Positions 3,001 to 6,296 of a stretch of DNA of 64,000 nt are shown here, one piece after another. Every line of letters begins with the position of its first letter. Within the stretch, counting starts at the first letter, position 1. Below the pieces are notes generated by a model. That model was given only the letters and a program-made list of their open reading frames with translations. It had not been told where the DNA came from and ran no database searches. The translations under genes were made by a program, and so were the position numbers. The DNA comes from Candidatus Nanoarchaeia archaeon (GTDB lineage: Archaea > Nanobdellota > Nanobdellia > Pacearchaeales > GW2011-AR1), in NCBI GenBank assembly GCA_028718805.1, contig JAQUKY010000006.1, forward strand, positions 1,927 to 65,926, read 5' to 3'.

Positions 3001-6000
3001 CATCAGTATCAAATATAGGAATTGGAGATGTTTTTGTTATTGGGGGGCAATCAAATGCTGAGGGTTGTGGTTCATACCAGAGCACGCTTAATTCTTCAGA
3101 TAATTTCAATGCAACTGTTTACAGGGAGGATGGTGCATGGAAACTGGCAAATGACCCTACTGATTCAGACCCTTGTCTTGGTAATGGTTCTGTGTGGCCA
3201 AAGATTGCTGACTATATAATTCAAAACCAGAGTATACCTGTGGCATTTATAACTGTGGCAGATGGTGGAACAAGTATTCTTCAATGGCAAAAAGGTCAAA
3301 CCCAATACGAGAATATGATAAATCAAGTCAGAAAAGCTACAAACGGAACAATGAGGGTAAAGACTCTGCTATTTTTTCAGGGAGAAACAGATGCAAAGAC
3401 AGATACGGGGGTAAGGGGGAATTATAATTATTACAAATCAAACCTGACAAAAATGGCAAATGATTTCATTAATGATACAGAGATAGCAACAACAGTAATA
3501 GCTGGACAGATTGATAGAAGCTATTCCTCTTGGACCAGAACGACTGTGGATAATATCAGAAAGGCACAACAGGATTTATGGAATGAAGATAACAATATTT
3601 CAGCAGGACCAGTAACCTATGACATCACTCAAACAGATGTTATGGTAGTGCATTTTAATACAAATGATGAGATAACGGCATTTGCAAATAGATGGTGGGC
3701 TTCAGTTGCAAATGTTATCTATGGTGTTGGGGATGGGAGGGGTCCTATACTAAAGAATATAACTTTTGGTGGTGGCAATAATAATCTTATCTTAAGCTTT
3801 GATGAGTCTTCTCTCCCCCTTTTAATTAAAAATTGGAATGGAACAATCTCATTAAAGGCTCAGGGATTTAGGATTGTAGATGGCTCTGTTGTACTAGACG
3901 ACAATAATATAACAAGTGCAGTGGTTATAAATAACAACCAGATTCAGATTAATTTTTCAACTAATATCTCATTAAATGCAAAAGTATCTTTAGGAAGCTA
4001 TACTGATGGCTACAATAAAAACATAATAAGAGATAACAGCTCTTTCTCGCTTCCTGCAGAGGCATTTTTGGATTTCCCCCTTTTAGATACATTCCTTCCT
4101 TCAATAAATTTCACTTCTCCAACTCCTGCAAATGGAAGCACATGGAATTATTCTTGGCTGCCTGTCAATGTTTCTGCATCTGACGTTGGAAGAGGGGATA
4201 ACAATATCTCAACATTTATTGATTTTGATAATTCCTTAGTTGGATGGTGGAGAATGGATGATTATAATGATTCTACAAAAACAGTTTATGATTATACAGG
4301 AAGAAACAATGGAACAGTTTATGGAAATGCTACCCAGACAGATGGAAAATTAGGAAAAGGGATGAAGTTTGATGGGAACAGTAGTTATATTAATACGACA
4401 ATGATTAATTTCCCCTCAGGAAACGCAAGTAGGACTGTTTCTCTTTGGCTTAAATGGTATCCTGATTCCAGTGTCTATGATGTACTTTTTGGCTACGGAA
4501 GCAGTTCATCAGGGCTTGAATTATTTGGCGCTTTTATGGAACCTTCAGGGAACTTGCGTTTTTGGTGCAATTATATGAATGTTTCTGATAATTATTATAC
4601 TGGTATCAATATTCCAGTCGGAAACTGGATATATTTAACATTTACTTATAATGGAACAGATATTAAAATATACAGGAATGGAGTATTACAAAATACAAAA
4701 ACAAAACTTCTAAATACTGTGCTTGTAAAATCAGCAATAGGTATAAACTCCTTTGTTGCTCTACATCCTTTTAACGGCACAATAGATGATGTTATGATAT
4801 TTAACAGAAGCTTAAGTGCAGAAGAAATCTCTGCTTTATATGCAAATACTTCTTCTAAGTATTTATTTAATAACTTCACTGACTTAGCTTTTGGAAACCA
4901 TACATTTAAAGCTTATGTTCAGGATACTTTTGGGAATGTGAACTGGACCGAGAAAAGAAATGTTTTTGTTAATGTCAGCATTACAGCTCTTCGAATAATC
5001 TGGGTTCAGAATCTATCTAATGTGACCGGAAATCCTGGAGATTTAAGAAATGTAAGTATTAACTTTAGTGTTTATGACGCAGGTGGCTTTGATGATTTAA
5101 ATGATTCAAGTGCAAGAGCAAATTTCACAAGAAATAATTTTGTAAGAAACTCTGCGAGCTGTTCGAGAATTGCAGGGGAGAGCTATGGTAGTTATGCAAA
5201 CTATACCTGTTATGTTGAGATGTGGTATTATGATCAAGGAGGGATGTGGGATGTAAGTGTTTCAATTGCAGACAAATCTGGAACATGGGCTGTTAATACT
5301 AGCAGTTTCCTGTACGAGTTCCTGTATTCTTTTAACATGACTCCTGATTATGTAAACTGGAGCGATATTCAGATTGGAGATGTTGATGAACCTGCAGATA
5401 ATAACATGACAATAAGCAATCTTGGAAATGCAAACATAATAAATATAAGTATTAATGCAAGCAGGTTAAATGGAACAGGCAGCTATCCTGCTGATTTTAT
5501 TCCTGCTGCTAATTTCTCATTCAGCAATTTAAGCTATAATTCGTGTAATTTAGGAGCAGGAGCCATAAGCTTAATTGAAGACCAAAATGTTTCTTTTAGA
5601 TTATTTATAAACTATTCTGACAGCTTTAATTATGCCTATGCAAATAACAGCATAGGATTTTGTTTGAAAGGGCTTCCTGCTGGCATTCATGCACAGGAAT
5701 ATAAAACAGGAGATGAAAAGAAATGGGAGATTAATGCAGTTTTTGAATTCTTTATTTCCATGAAATATGCTCTTCTTGTTGCTGCAATTGTTGTTAAAAA
5801 TAAAAGAAAAAAGAAAAACAAATTGAGCGAAGCGGAATTACTGAAATTAAATTCTAAGCTAAAGGAAAAATATAATATAAGCATTAGCGAGATATTAAAG
5901 GAGATAGAAGAGGAAAAAGCTAAAAAAGAAATACAAATACCAATTCTAATATTTGAAAGTAGACTAGGACCTGCAGAAGCATTATGCAAGTACTTAAAAG

Positions 6001-6296
6001 AAAGTTTAGAATTAAAATATTCCGAAATTGCTGAATTGATTGACAGAGATGAAAGAACAGTTTGGATTAATTATAGAAATGCTAGTAGGAAGATAAAAGG
6101 AAAGATAAAAACAGACCCAAAAATATTGATGCCTATTAATATATTTTCAGACAGGAGATTGAGCATTTTAGAGTCTGTTGTCAGATATTTGAAAGAGAAG
6201 CAATTAAGAAATGTTGAGATAGCAAAACTATTGGGAAAGGACCAGAGAAATATTTATACTTTATACTCAAGAGCCAGGAAAAAATTATCTATCTAA
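3..6296 (+). CDS. Giant multidomain surface protein, 5'-partial: beta-helix, LamG x2, SGNH/sialate-O-acetylesterase-like domain, secreted-type beta domain, putative TM segment, tandem HTH tail
   Basis: Open from the window edge for 2097 aa. Motifs: beta-helix repeats (ITINLNGYAVDG...GIYLESNSNNSVSNI), two LamG blocks (GWWRMDD...FNGTIDDVMIFNRSLS), SGNH-like GGQSNA/FFQGETD, hydrophobic FFISMKYALLVAAIVV followed by KNKRKKKNK, and two HTH-like units (YSEIAELIDRDERTVW; NVEIAKLLGKDQRNIY). Confidence 0.85.
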   Translation: MPTPIASEYVAPVVPVSLEDKNLPIVEESLMQYQAVVGKPVKWKKQFTIGGVSGFSVELPKGSEKITIKTIISGKEEDITSISSINKKRNLLIFGERAVEVSINTNSITGNVIVNNQEQVLYRVEYETPAPAKSEELVEGGKRILIRGPEDVHYKNILSFTELPKELNQNELGKFELYQIKNGNREIVKFTAYDTNENGLYNYIEWIIPELSETEFLWIIKTTKAEHLDGNKDFISDIYPQIQALDGNWSETVNNDEYVRVTFEQNLTNKNDITIYARATDEENAEIEVYKQGDSNLITKFENISNENWYKVYLINLSEGESYNVFDLKILGSAEFDYIVDPFFDNSSLKQILYDCGNLNTTNAVYTLNQSLINKAGSCLVVKANNITINLNGYAVDGDDSGSDQGVRSAYNYTTIKNGTITDFRHGIYLESNSNNSVSNIITDSNTYGILLSFSLNNVFRDSSFANSVSNDVWLMYSSNNNTFLNVSYNLNKESVQGGYLIRNWYYQANVSYQGMPVSGADLSVYNNSYPAGWQFNLTSNSAGLTNIIEIIDYVSSSGTIRNYYSNYTINVVNGILNESHNLNVTEKSLQSGFGGLIFDEINFLGDTISPFINFTSPTPANGSTWNYSWLPVNVSAYDDITYNNNISTFIDFDNSLIGWWRMDDYNDSTKTVYDYTGRNNGTVYGNATQTDGKLGKGMKFDGFNVSSNDNDFINCKNDSSLNLKTGSWGAWVKLNSKMLGNIGERIIFKESTGSPGSNGIYELFYWKDKNRFRSEAVVSGVRYITESSSSVNLGEWYYLVSTYDGEILKLYVNGVNVGNNETPSGNIDSSLGPLIIGSSLGQPDMAPFNGTIDDVMIFNRSLSAEEISALYANTSSKYLFNNFTDLAFGNHTFKAYVQDTFGNVNWTEKRSLAISTINVSISYPVQFAIFQRHNSITGEIPIYGTYSGTPASIEASFNGGSYVTINSSPSGGIFSGKLNASLGQGKLIIRFSNNPSINSSVSNIGIGDVFVIGGQSNAEGCGSYQSTLNSSDNFNATVYREDGAWKLANDPTDSDPCLGNGSVWPKIADYIIQNQSIPVAFITVADGGTSILQWQKGQTQYENMINQVRKATNGTMRVKTLLFFQGETDAKTDTGVRGNYNYYKSNLTKMANDFINDTEIATTVIAGQIDRSYSSWTRTTVDNIRKAQQDLWNEDNNISAGPVTYDITQTDVMVVHFNTNDEITAFANRWWASVANVIYGVGDGRGPILKNITFGGGNNNLILSFDESSLPLLIKNWNGTISLKAQGFRIVDGSVVLDDNNITSAVVINNNQIQINFSTNISLNAKVSLGSYTDGYNKNIIRDNSSFSLPAEAFLDFPLLDTFLPSINFTSPTPANGSTWNYSWLPVNVSASDVGRGDNNISTFIDFDNSLVGWWRMDDYNDSTKTVYDYTGRNNGTVYGNATQTDGKLGKGMKFDGNSSYINTTMINFPSGNASRTVSLWLKWYPDSSVYDVLFGYGSSSSGLELFGAFMEPSGNLRFWCNYMNVSDNYYTGINIPVGNWIYLTFTYNGTDIKIYRNGVLQNTKTKLLNTVLVKSAIGINSFVALHPFNGTIDDVMIFNRSLSAEEISALYANTSSKYLFNNFTDLAFGNHTFKAYVQDTFGNVNWTEKRNVFVNVSITALRIIWVQNLSNVTGNPGDLRNVSINFSVYDAGGFDDLNDSSARANFTRNNFVRNSASCSRIAGESYGSYANYTCYVEMWYYDQGGMWDVSVSIADKSGTWAVNTSSFLYEFLYSFNMTPDYVNWSDIQIGDVDEPADNNMTISNLGNANIINISINASRLNGTGSYPADFIPAANFSFSNLSYNSCNLGAGAISLIEDQNVSFRLFINYSDSFNYAYANNSIGFCLKGLPAGIHAQEYKTGDEKKWEINAVFEFFISMKYALLVAAIVVKNKRKKKNKLSEAELLKLNSKLKEKYNISISEILKEIEEEKAKKEIQIPILIFESRLGPAEALCKYLKESLELKYSEIAELIDRDERTVWINYRNASRKIKGKIKTDPKILMPINIFSDRRLSILESVVRYLKEKQLRNVEIAKLLGKDQRNIYTLYSRARKKLSI
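1842..2110 (+). repeat. Intragenic direct repeat A, copy 1 (N-terminal flank of LamG)
   Basis: Identical to 4107-4375 over 269 nt except a 20-nt patch (1913-1932) and 2 nt (1973-1974). Confidence 0.95.
2543..2736 (+). repeat. Intragenic direct repeat B, copy 1 (C-terminal flank of LamG)
   Basis: 194 nt identical to 4766-4959. Confidence 0.95.
4107..4375 (+). repeat. Intragenic direct repeat A, copy 2
   Basis: See copy 1 at 1842-2110. Confidence 0.95.
4766..4959 (+). repeat. Intragenic direct repeat B, copy 2
   Basis: See copy 1 at 2543-2736. Confidence 0.95.

What the first reader, a model, noticed from the sequence alone, without database searches (positions are those of the whole stretch)
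5730..6296. Giant surface protein ends in a membrane segment and a cytoplasmic tandem HTH
Seen: after about 1900 aa of extracellular-type domains come a hydrophobic stretch, a KNKRKKKNK positive-inside cluster and two sigma70-region-4-like HTH repeats, all in one frame. Inference: a one-component transmembrane sensor-regulator coupling surface contact, for example with a host, to transcription, possibly of the adjacent surface-gene cluster. The hydrophobic segment contains E and K, so the topology is uncertain.
Basis: partly seen in the sequence, partly recalled or inferred. Interest (0 to 1): 0.65.

Follow-up and report, generated by a model that had tools for sequence, protein, structure and literature searches.

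The report
Giant archaeal surface protein with DNA-binding tail
A 2,256-residue sugar-coated surface protein of a tiny DPANN archaeon ends inside the cell in a rigid pair of DNA-binding (helix-turn-helix) modules, and its own promoter holds the genome's only two copies of a matching DNA box, so it most likely controls its own gene from the membrane.

Summary
Window 3-6296 is one open frame. The gene starts 474 nt before the window and encodes 2,256 aa. After a sequon-rich ectodomain come a hydrophobic segment (5724-5795), KNKRKKKNK (5796-5822), a conserved linker, and two 39%-identical repeats (5931-6293). The repeats pass Pfam Sigma70_r4_2 and fold with pLDDT 95 into sigma-4/Tfx-type HTH units.

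The fusion is no artefact. About 2,000 protein clusters carry this tail, nearly always at the extreme C-terminus. The same module is a phylum-wide family (157 of 301 genomes). It usually occurs as a free ~180-aa protein whose gene overlaps the start of a giant surface-protein gene.

Every gene or operon examined with its 5' end present has one promoter design: two ~16-nt boxes bracket the TATA box. Here ATACACACAWATTAAGT lies at contig positions 1101 and 1156, upstream of the window. A matrix built only from other genomes ranks these two sites first and second among 2.35 million positions.

Best reading (about 0.55): a membrane-tethered autoregulator. DNA binding, the sign of regulation and any contact sensing are inferred. 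The family appears undescribed in the searched literature, though earlier agents of this scan met it.

The parts
3..6296 (+). 3' 2,097 codons plus stop of the 2,256-aa giant surface-protein gene. The gene starts at contig C6:1452, which is window position -474.
   Evidence: Open frame. Full extent and start. The same 2,256-aa product is on record as P0008. Pfam finds Laminin_G_3 twice and a SASA esterase.
5103..5723 (+). Membrane-proximal ectodomain module (full-length residues 1860-2066). It is conserved in homologues and paralogous to the free protein encoded at 6470-7468.
   Evidence: BLASTP of the 347-aa listed frame (6425-7465) against the giant: 25.6% identity, E 5e-9, residues 1860-2072. 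The conserved motifs NNTGN, GNFS, QEElYFCL and YST..W precede the membrane segment in homologues. No Pfam family matches.
5724..5795 (+). Second hydrophobic (membrane) segment, WEINAVFEFFISMKYALLVAAIVV.
   Evidence: KD 19-mer maximum 2.08 at residues 2072-2090. AlphaFold2 predicts it helical at low confidence. Homologues have W-x-I plus 12-28 hydrophobic residues at the same place.
5796..5822 (+). Polybasic stop-transfer cluster, KNKRKKKNK.
   Evidence: Read directly. An R/K cluster or a hydrophobic-plus-R/K pattern precedes the HTH in 64 of 67 large homologues and aligns in A1.
5823..5930 (+). Helical linker with the conserved LKEKYNISISEIL motif.
   Evidence: Aligned in A1. The same motif opens the free ~180-aa homologues. 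Predicted helices H44-58 and H62-75, pLDDT 73-81.
5931..6119 (+). HTH repeat 1, with recognition helix RDERTVWINYRNASRK.
   Evidence: Pfam and NCBIfam sigma-70 region 4 hits. pLDDT 91-98. Invariant residues R39, R42, T43 and Y48.
6120..6293 (+). HTH repeat 2, with recognition helix KDQRNIYTLYSRARKK.
   Evidence: Pfam Sigma70_r4_2 best stretch. Profile hit to EnfR 8HNP, E 1.3e-3. Foldseek local matches to EnfR (rmsd 0.9 A, 34% identity), sigmaE region 4 on DNA, and RcsB on DNA.
6294..6304 (+). Stop codon TAA followed by a T8 tract, a likely archaeal terminator.
   Evidence: Sequence. The role as terminator is inference from general knowledge of archaeal poly-T termination.
6470..7468 (+). Free secreted paralogue of the giant's membrane-proximal module. 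It ends ...RLWGIEVI*, exactly where the giant's membrane segment begins.
   Evidence: The likely start is ATG 6470, behind a TATA-like element at about 6441-6450. No box A lies upstream.
7471..8841 (+). Two paralogous small genes (7471-8025 and 8284-8841). Each encodes a signal peptide, a beta-rich domain and a C-terminal membrane anchor. They are context for the surface-protein cluster.
   Evidence: The two are 33-34% identical to each other, E 1e-22 to 1e-24. No Pfam family matches.

Best explanation
The finding is the cytoplasmic tail of a two-pass (N-in, C-in) giant glycoprotein of a DPANN archaeon. The 121-aa end folds into a rigid pair of sigma-70-region-4/Tfx-type helix-turn-helix units.

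This pair belongs to a phylum-wide, apparently undescribed family of archaeal DNA-binding proteins. The family is normally made as free ~180-aa proteins from the first gene of a giant-surface-protein operon. In this lineage the module is fused to the giant's C-terminus.

The most likely job is autoregulation from the membrane. The tail binds two ~16-nt boxes (ATACACACAWATTAAGT, 55 nt apart) that bracket the TATA box of the giant's own promoter. It thereby sets how much of the giant is made.

Box 2 lies between the TATA box and the transcribed region, where archaeal repressors usually act. Negative feedback is therefore the likeliest sign. The DNA-binding part is translated last, and co-translational membrane insertion would keep the gene near the membrane. 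The tail could then act on the copy of the gene that made it.

Shown: the architecture, the fold, conservation of the fusion, the split-gene equivalent, and the exclusive association of the boxes with genes that carry the module.

Inferred: DNA binding itself, repression versus activation, and any dependence on what the ectodomain touches.
For: 1. Fold. Pfam Sigma70_r4_2 scores above its cut-off. AlphaFold2 gives the pair pLDDT 94.9 and pTM 0.87. Each unit superposes on DNA-binding HTHs: EnfR at 0.9 A and 34% identity, sigmaE region 4 on -35 DNA, and RcsB on DNA. The closest solved sequence is EnfR (E 1.3e-3), which binds promoter DNA (PMC10570040).

2. Cytoplasmic location.
- Two hydrophobic peaks, with 93 of 95 sequons between them.
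- Net charge is +17 for the tail, +13 for the N-terminal part and -62 for the ectodomain.
- In 65 homologues, sequons are 2.03x expectation in ectodomains and 0.96x in tails.
- Free homologues lack a signal peptide and a membrane segment.

3. Conserved fusion.
- 2,020 clusters match at E<=1e-3.
- In 146 of the 150 best, the HTH ends within 15 aa of the C-terminus.
- 64 of the 67 large ones have a polybasic cluster, mostly after a hydrophobic run, within 200 aa upstream of the first HTH.

4. Rosetta-stone link. In 19 of 20 loci with a free form, the HTH gene overlaps (by 3-55 nt) the start of a sequon-rich surface-protein gene, mostly longer than 1,100 aa.

5. Operator candidate.
- ACAYAWATTAAGT occurs twice in the 1.18-Mb genome. 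Both copies are in this promoter, 55 nt apart around TTTATAAA.
- A matrix built from 16 boxes of 8 other genomes ranks them first and second of 2.35 million positions (22.6 and 19.2 bits; the next scores 16.2).
- The box-TATA-box layout recurs before tail-bearing giants in 10 other genomes and before G001's 3'-truncated giant, and before free-form operons.
- Box pairs 53-56 nt apart occur in 5 of 13 tail-positive relatives and 0 of 48 tail-negative ones. Hypergeometric p is 2e-4.

6. The tail is the only HTH of this type in the genome. The one weak extra hit is ribosomal protein S4e.
Against: - Nothing has been tested experimentally.
- The boxes track the giant gene as much as they track the HTH module. 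I found no homologous giant that lacks the module, so another factor could bind them.
- Many homologues have only 12-15 hydrophobic residues between the conserved W and the basic cluster. Here the segment contains E and K. No dedicated topology predictor was available.
- The whole tandem pair has no significant structural match (best Foldseek E 0.2), so the mode of DNA binding is unknown.
- This genus has a ~290-nt leader with conserved hairpins and three copies of a second motif. That points to further, possibly RNA-level, control that the simple model leaves out.
- I could not show that recognition-helix residues co-vary with box variants.
- The gene is present in only 13 of 61 close relatives.
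Confidence: 0.55

Rival explanations
1. Regulated release. The tail is cut from the giant by an intramembrane or juxtamembrane protease, for instance after the ectodomain is engaged or shed. It then acts as a soluble regulator, like the free ~180-aa family members.
For: The module works as a free soluble protein in most of the phylum. The linker motif LKEKYN..EL that opens the free proteins is kept in the tail just after the basic cluster. A cut there would yield a free-form look-alike. In one locus a signal-peptide-peptidase gene sits beside a free-form gene, which is weak evidence.
Against: No cleavage motif or dedicated protease was identified. I found no ATG between the membrane segment and HTH 1 that could give a separate product. 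Membrane-tethered regulators that act without release are well documented (PMC10269533).
Confidence: 0.2
2. The tail is a cytoplasmic adaptor, not a transcription factor. The HTH pair binds a protein partner, the giant's own N-terminal cytoplasmic domain, or RNA such as the structured leader. A different factor recognises the promoter boxes.
For: Sigma region 4 folds also serve as protein-binding surfaces, for example in anti-sigma complexes such as 8jzt and 6in7 among the structural matches. The leader carries conserved hairpins that display TTTACACACC. The N-terminal cytoplasmic domain co-occurs with the tail: 8 of the 9 genomes that have it are tail-positive.
Against: The recognition-helix positions (R39, R42, T43, Y48, N107, T110, R114) are the invariant residues of the family. 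The module is strongly basic. Its closest characterised relatives bind DNA. No other candidate regulator travels with the boxes.
Confidence: 0.15
3. There is no true membrane span, and the HTH pair is outside the cell, for instance capturing extracellular DNA for a nucleotide-scavenging symbiont.
For: The hydrophobic stretch is short in many homologues (12-15 residues) and contains E and K here.
Against: A polybasic cluster directly follows the hydrophobic stretch in the large homologues inspected. Sequon enrichment stops at that point. The free homologues are plainly cytoplasmic. The promoter boxes would be left unexplained.
Confidence: 0.05
4. Assembly or frameshift artefact that joins two genes.
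For: None was found.
Against: The same junction (ectodomain, hydrophobic segment, basic cluster, HTH) appears in about 65 large representative proteins from independent assemblies. One is a 61%-identical relative with an almost identical membrane segment (P0031).
Confidence: 0.01

Closest known systems
Transmembrane transcription regulators (TTRs: ToxR, TcpP, CadC; class surveyed by Demey et al. 2023, PMC10269533)
   Same: One polypeptide with an extracytoplasmic part, a membrane span and a cytoplasmic DNA-binding domain. It is expected to act on DNA while anchored. It meets the survey's working definition of a predicted transmembrane region plus a DNA-binding domain.
   Different: ToxR and CadC carry an N-terminal OmpR-type winged helix and a modest periplasmic sensor (own knowledge). 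Here the DNA-binding part is a C-terminal tandem sigma-4/Tfx-type HTH behind a ~1,940-aa glycosylated ectodomain, with both termini inside the cell. The survey's text mentions neither DPANN nor sigma-type domains.
Tfx family / EnfR (TON_1525; PDB 8HNO, 8HNP; PMC10570040)
   Same: An archaeal regulator whose HTH resembles sigma-70 region 4. It is the best sequence-profile hit in the PDB (E 1.3e-3) and the best local structural match (44 columns, 0.9 A, 34% identity). EnfR binds an inverted repeat in a promoter.
   Different: EnfR has one HTH plus an acidic alpha+beta domain and acts as an X-shaped dimer. Here two HTHs sit in one chain with no such domain. The NCBIfam EnfR model scores 13.5 bits against a cut-off of 260.
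ECF sigma / anti-sigma pairs
   Same: The domain is of the sigma region 4 type. The split form has a small HTH gene that overlaps the start of a gene for a membrane protein. In 11 of 19 loci that membrane protein has a cytoplasmic N-terminal helical domain, one membrane span and an outside domain. This mirrors sigma/anti-sigma operons (own knowledge of that layout).
   Different: There is no sigma region 2, and archaea have no sigma factors (own knowledge). TIGR02937 scores 23.6 bits against a cut-off of 42.9. Binding between the HTH pair and the N-terminal domain is untested. In 8 of 19 split loci the partner has only a signal peptide or a short N-terminus.
ArnR/ArnR1 of Sulfolobus (archaeal membrane-bound regulators of the archaellum; cited as archaeal TTRs in PMC10269533)
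   Same: Archaeal, membrane-anchored, with a cytoplasmic HTH that regulates a surface structure.
   Different: From my own knowledge, they have an N-terminal HTH, C-terminal membrane segments and no large ectodomain. I did no sequence test here.
Giant surface proteins of DPANN archaea (for example SPEARE proteins of Nanohaloarchaeota, Hamm et al. 2019, PMC6642349, named by an earlier agent)
   Same: Very large proteins of host-dependent DPANN archaea that carry lectin and beta-helix domains.

Membership tests
Pfam PF08281 Sigma70_r4_2 (domain-level membership) | Score at or above the gathering threshold of 25.7 bits | tested here: met
   37.3 bits on the 205-aa tail and 29.5 bits on the 2,097-aa window product, with two stretches.
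Bacterial sigma-70/ECF sigma factors | Region 2 together with region 4, and a family model score above its cut-off | tested here: not met
   TIGR02937 scores 23.6 bits against 42.9. SigX4 scores 30 bits against 323. Only the region 4 part of those models aligns. There are two region-4-like units and no region 2.
Transmembrane transcription regulators (TTR class, PMC10269533) | A predicted DNA-binding domain in the same protein as at least one predicted transmembrane region | tested here: met
   HTH pair. Two hydrophobic segments with KD 2.86 and 2.08. The definition is quoted. Both features are predictions only.
Transmembrane transcription regulators (TTR class) | Binds DNA and regulates transcription while in the membrane | not testable with these tools
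   Only indirect evidence exists: a unique, conserved box pair in its own promoter.
ToxR/CadC family | N-terminal OmpR/PhoB-type winged-helix DNA-binding domain | tested here: not met
   Pfam reports no Trans_reg_C hit, and the DNA-binding part is C-terminal.
Tfx/EnfR family (NCBIfam NF053597) | Model score above the cut-off of 260 bits; one N-terminal HTH plus an acidic C-terminal domain | tested here: not met
   13.5 bits, E 0.059. Only the 37-44 residue HTH aligns. The domain description comes from PMC10570040.
LuxR/GerE-type HTH regulators | Match to the GerE/LuxR C-terminal domain model | tested here: inconclusive
   GerE does not appear among the Pfam hits at E<=1. RcsB's LuxR-type domain matches locally in structure (1.6 A over 45 columns, 33% identity).
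DPANN tandem-HTH module family (unnamed; defined here) | Two consecutive IPxxIF...EIAxLLxRDxRT(I/V)W / ...KDxRNIW HTH units, preceded by a KEKY-type helix | tested here: met
   Alignments A1 and A2 have 12 invariant columns. 1,537 clusters match at E<=1e-10. The module is in 157 of 301 genomes of the phylum.
DPANN tandem-HTH module family (unnamed; defined here) | Gene or operon promoter with two or more (C/A)TACA..TAAGT-type boxes bracketing the TATA box | tested here: met
   Own promoter C6:1101 and C6:1156. Relatives. Free-form operons.

The most novel reading that the evidence does not exclude
An archaeal counterpart of the sigma/anti-sigma logic. The giant's ~105-aa N-terminal cytoplasmic helical domain holds the sigma-4-like HTH pair inactive at the membrane. 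The pair is free in most lineages and covalently fused here. Engagement of the ~1,940-aa lectin/esterase ectodomain, for example by a host cell surface, shifts the two membrane segments and frees the pair to act on the box-TATA-box promoter. That would give DPANN symbionts a direct contact-to-transcription switch.

Leads:
- The HTH gene overlaps the start of the giant's gene in 19 of 20 split loci.
- 11 of those 19 giants carry the same N-terminal domain.
- The N-terminal domain and the tail co-occur.
- Sigma-4/anti-sigma complexes are among the structural neighbours.
Probability: 0.12. Interest if true: 0.85.

Novelty: new variant of a known kind. Interest (0 to 1): 0.62.

Why it matters
DPANN archaea depend on physical contact with hosts, yet almost nothing is known about how they sense contact or control their very large surface proteins.

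This locus and its relatives give a concrete, testable circuit:
- a small, well-folding DNA-binding module;
- a defined ~16-nt operator pair around a TATA box;
- natural split and fused versions of the same system across more than 100 genera.

If binding is confirmed, it would be a major, lineage-specific archaeal transcription-factor family. It would also be an unusual case of a membrane-tethered regulator whose DNA-binding part is the last piece of a giant secreted chain.

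Tried and rejected
1. One search was wasted. I gave wrong locus coordinates and searched the LamG region instead of the tail.

2. The weak second HTH hit in the genome (C15:8126-8797, E 0.008) is ribosomal protein S4e. The nearby TACACAC is therefore chance.

3. It holds only a T8 tract and the next gene's TATA-like element.

4. "1 TGA inside" in about ten free-form matches looked like possible recoding. It is simply the natural stop codon, because the alignment overruns ...KKK*.

5. I tried to link recognition-helix residues to box variants. 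The regular expression caught too few sequences and no pattern emerged, so I make no claim.

6. Single box matches in tail-negative relatives lie in coding or unrelated contexts. None forms a box pair around a TATA box.

7. Foldseek on both the whole-tail model and the trimmed pair gave no significant global hit. Only single-unit local matches appeared.

8. Pfam finds nothing for the N-terminal cytoplasmic domain, the membrane-proximal module or the free paralogue.

9. Three literature searches for DPANN or Pacearchaeota together with this architecture found nothing relevant.

Full report
WHAT IS THERE

The window is G000:C6:1927-65926 of a 1.18-Mb, 31% G+C genome that is 86.7% complete. Names given to the giant's homologues place it among DPANN archaea (Pacearchaeota/Nanoarchaeota).

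Window 3-6296 is one open frame. It continues upstream to an ATG at C6:1452, which is window position -474. That gives 2,256 aa, the same product public gene calls hold as P0008.

The protein has only two strong hydrophobic peaks: residues 108-126 (KD 2.86) and 2072-2090 (KD 2.08). Between them lie about 1,940 aa. This stretch holds two Laminin_G_3 domains, a SASA sialate-esterase domain, and 93 of the protein's 95 NxS/T sequons.

Behind the second peak come four parts:
- KNKRKKKNK, window 5796-5822.
- A helical linker, 5823-5930.
- Two repeats, 5931-6119 and 6120-6293, that are 39% identical to each other (E 4e-11).

The protein also has a ~105-aa, net +13 cytoplasmic N-terminus outside the window. 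This makes an N-in/C-in layout self-consistent.

ARE THE REPEATS HTH FOLDS?

Yes.
- Pfam Sigma70_r4_2 scores 37.3 bits against a cut-off of 25.7. NCBIfam sigma models align only through their region 4.
- With a 23-sequence alignment, AlphaFold2 gives pLDDT 93-98 over both repeats in the tail model. For the pair alone it gives pLDDT 94.9 and pTM 0.87.
- Each repeat is a short strand, a short helix and three helices.
- Foldseek finds no significant match for the pair as a whole (best E 0.2).
- Each unit superposes on DNA-binding HTHs: EnfR 8HNP (44 columns, 0.9 A, 34% identity), sigmaE region 4 on -35 DNA (2H27), RcsB on DNA (1.6 A), and SigR region 4.
- A profile of the tail finds EnfR as the best PDB sequence (E 1.3e-3).
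- EnfR is an archaeal Tfx-family repressor with a sigma-4-like HTH and a footprinted operator (PMC10570040).

IS THE FUSION REAL AND CONSERVED?

Yes.
- An exhaustive HMMER search with the 121-aa pair finds 2,020 clusters at E<=1e-3 and 1,537 at E<=1e-10.
- In 146 of the best 150, the HTH ends within 15 aa of the C-terminus.
- 67 of the 150 are proteins of at least 600 aa (the longest is 5,919 aa). Of these, 64 have a polybasic cluster, mostly after a hydrophobic run, within 200 aa upstream of the first HTH.
- The stretch before the tail is itself conserved. It runs NNTGN...GNFS...QEElYFCL...YST..W, then 12-28 hydrophobic residues, then R/K4-8.
- Named homologues are LamG or beta-helix proteins of Pacearchaeota and Nanoarchaeota. 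One is annotated "sigma-70 region 4 domain-containing protein".
- An artefactual join is therefore excluded for practical purposes.

INSIDE OR OUTSIDE?

Many homologues have only 12-15 hydrophobic residues after the conserved W. Four observations favour a cytoplasmic tail:
- The positive cluster follows directly.
- The charge pattern is +13, -62 and +17 for the N-terminal part, ectodomain and tail.
- In 65 homologues, sequons run at 3.79 per 100 aa (2.03x the composition expectation) in ectodomains, but 0.60 per 100 aa (0.96x) in tails.
- Free homologues of the module have no signal peptide or membrane segment.

I put this at about 0.85. No dedicated topology predictor was available.

THE MODULE IS A PHYLUM-WIDE FAMILY, USUALLY FREE

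In a sample of 301 genomes of the phylum, 157 genomes (122 of 224 genera) carry the module, with up to nine copies each. In nearly all listed matches the open frame is 117-363 aa long. Among the listed matches, frames over 1,000 aa occur in the window's own family (the own genome, G309, G296, G166, G357) and in G244.

Free forms are ~180-aa proteins: an N-terminal stretch with the same LKEKY..EL motif as the giant's linker, then the two HTHs.

In 19 of 20 free-form loci taken from that sample, the HTH gene overlaps by 3-55 nt the start of the next gene. That next gene encodes a sequon-rich protein (2.2-7.1 sequons per 100 aa), usually longer than 1,100 aa. The three loci fetched by identity show the same arrangement, for example 181 aa followed by a 1,422-aa Beta_helix protein.

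Eleven of those 19 partners begin with the same cytoplasmic helical domain as the giant here (..IS..EY...GKT.EQWI.YY). Eight have a signal peptide or only a short N-terminus. G244 has both a free gene and a giant with a fused tail, in tandem.

The split and fused arrangements link the module functionally to giant surface proteins.

THE CANDIDATE OPERATOR

The 420-nt region upstream of the gene (C6:1031-1451, outside the window) holds the following:
- CTATACACACAAATTAAGTAT at C6:1101.
- AAATACACACATATTAAGTTA at C6:1156.
- TTTATAAA between them.

ACAYAWATTAAGT occurs nowhere else in the genome.

The same box-TATA-box layout precedes tail-bearing giants in G005, G034, G016, G045 and G050 (three genes), in G011, G019 and G055, and in G036 and G052. 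G001's 3'-truncated giant has it too.

A weight matrix built only from 16 boxes of 8 other genomes ranks the two sites here first and second among 2,349,492 positions (22.6 and 19.2 bits; the next scores 16.2).

Across 61 relatives, box pairs 53-56 nt apart occur in 5 of 13 tail-positive genomes and 0 of 48 tail-negative ones. Hypergeometric p is 2.2e-4. Single hits in tail-negative genomes sit in unrelated contexts.

Free-form operons carry the same kind of box. It has a conserved (C)TTACA(T) half and a lineage-specific second half: TAAGTA, AACGTA, AATGTA, ATAGAA or TATAGG. That fits a two-part site read by two HTHs, but I could not demonstrate residue-base co-variation.

The tail is the only HTH of this type in the genome.

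MECHANISM

The best-supported reading is a membrane-tethered autoregulator. The tail binds the two boxes around the TATA box of its own gene.

Box 2 lies downstream of the TATA box, the usual place for archaeal repressors (general knowledge). I therefore favour negative feedback on the amount of giant protein.

The position of the module at the very end of a co-translationally inserted chain would favour action on the gene copy being expressed. This last point is inference.

Whether the ectodomain modulates this, as in contact sensing, is untested.

Rivals:
- Proteolytic release of the tail (0.2).
- A non-DNA adaptor role, with another factor binding the boxes (0.15).
- An extracellular tail (0.05).
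- An artefact (0.01).

COMPARISON AND NOVELTY

By the working definition of Demey et al. (a transmembrane region plus a DNA-binding domain; PMC10269533), this is a TTR. It differs from ToxR/CadC in domain type, domain order, topology and scale.

It is not a sigma factor, because it has no region 2 and the models score below their cut-offs. It is not a Tfx/EnfR family member (13.5 bits against 260). Its HTH is nevertheless closest to that archaeal family.

Three literature searches found no description of this architecture in DPANN archaea.

Earlier agents of this scan reached similar readings on relatives in other genomes. I re-derived the key points here. I also added four things:
- The cross-validated matrix result.
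- The phylum-level count of free versus fused forms.
- The 19-of-20 overlapping-operon statistic.
- The resemblance of the split layout to sigma/anti-sigma operons.

I rate it a new variant of a known kind, interest 0.62.

Noticed in passing
contig C6:1177-1451 (window -749 to -475, upstream of the window); relatives L020, L021, L030: The 14-mer TTTACACACCCTAA occurs three times in the genome, all in this gene's ~290-nt leader: one inverted copy right after box 2 and two direct copies. The last copy sits in the loop of a 12-bp perfect hairpin (AAAGAGCAGGCT/AGCCTGCTCTTT) 13 nt before the ATG. G005, G019 and G034 keep the layout. The hairpin stems differ in sequence but still pair, and the 5' and 3' elements change together (G005: GTGTGTGAGACT / AGTCTCACACAC). 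Folding z-scores are -4.2 (own) and -5.3 (G034). This could be RNA long-range pairing that gates translation, or extra inverted DNA sites. Undecided.
   Followed up: partly
window 6470-7468: A free secreted paralogue of the giant's membrane-proximal module ends at ...RLWGIEVI*, exactly where the giant's membrane segment begins. Identity is only 25.6% (E 5e-9). The recent gene conversion that earlier agents reported for this gene pair in other genomes is not evident here.
   Followed up: partly
window 7471-8025 and 8284-8841: Two paralogous small proteins (33-34% identical). Each has a signal peptide, a beta-rich domain, a C-terminal membrane anchor and a short basic end. No Pfam family matches.
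   Followed up: no
window 1842-4959 (inside the same gene): Two long, near-identical protein blocks repeat within the ectodomain, around the two LamG cores...FINFTSPTPANGSTWNYSWLPVNVSA...GWWRMDDYNDSTKTVYDYTGRNNGTVYGNATQTDGKLGKGMKFDG and ...FNGTIDDVMIFNRSLSAEEISALYANTSSKYLFNNFTDLAFGNHTFKAYVQDTFGNVNWTEKR. They are visible in the translation. This matches another first-stage finding, e1-5237453.
   Followed up: no
L045:8533-12801: A 1,422-aa beta-helix surface protein downstream of a free HTH gene ends in three copies of a different repeat, G(F/Y)xxxQIRxxLxxAGW. This may be another kind of cytoplasmic tail repeat on giant proteins.
   Followed up: no
L054 (G244:C1:339500-347000): One genome has both arrangements in tandem. 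A free 184-aa tandem-HTH gene overlaps by 10 nt the start of a 1,666-aa giant that itself ends in a fused HTH pair.
   Followed up: partly
G019:C20:5411-5774 (L014, L017): In this same-genus relative the tail match is split, with an in-frame TAA between the two HTH units. This could be a pseudogene, a sequencing error or a truncated variant.
   Followed up: no
L047:7440-7800: The promoter region of a free-form gene (P0213) carries six or seven copies of CTTATATAATAAGAT within about 330 nt. This is a much larger box array than elsewhere. A signal-peptide-peptidase gene lies divergently upstream.
   Followed up: no
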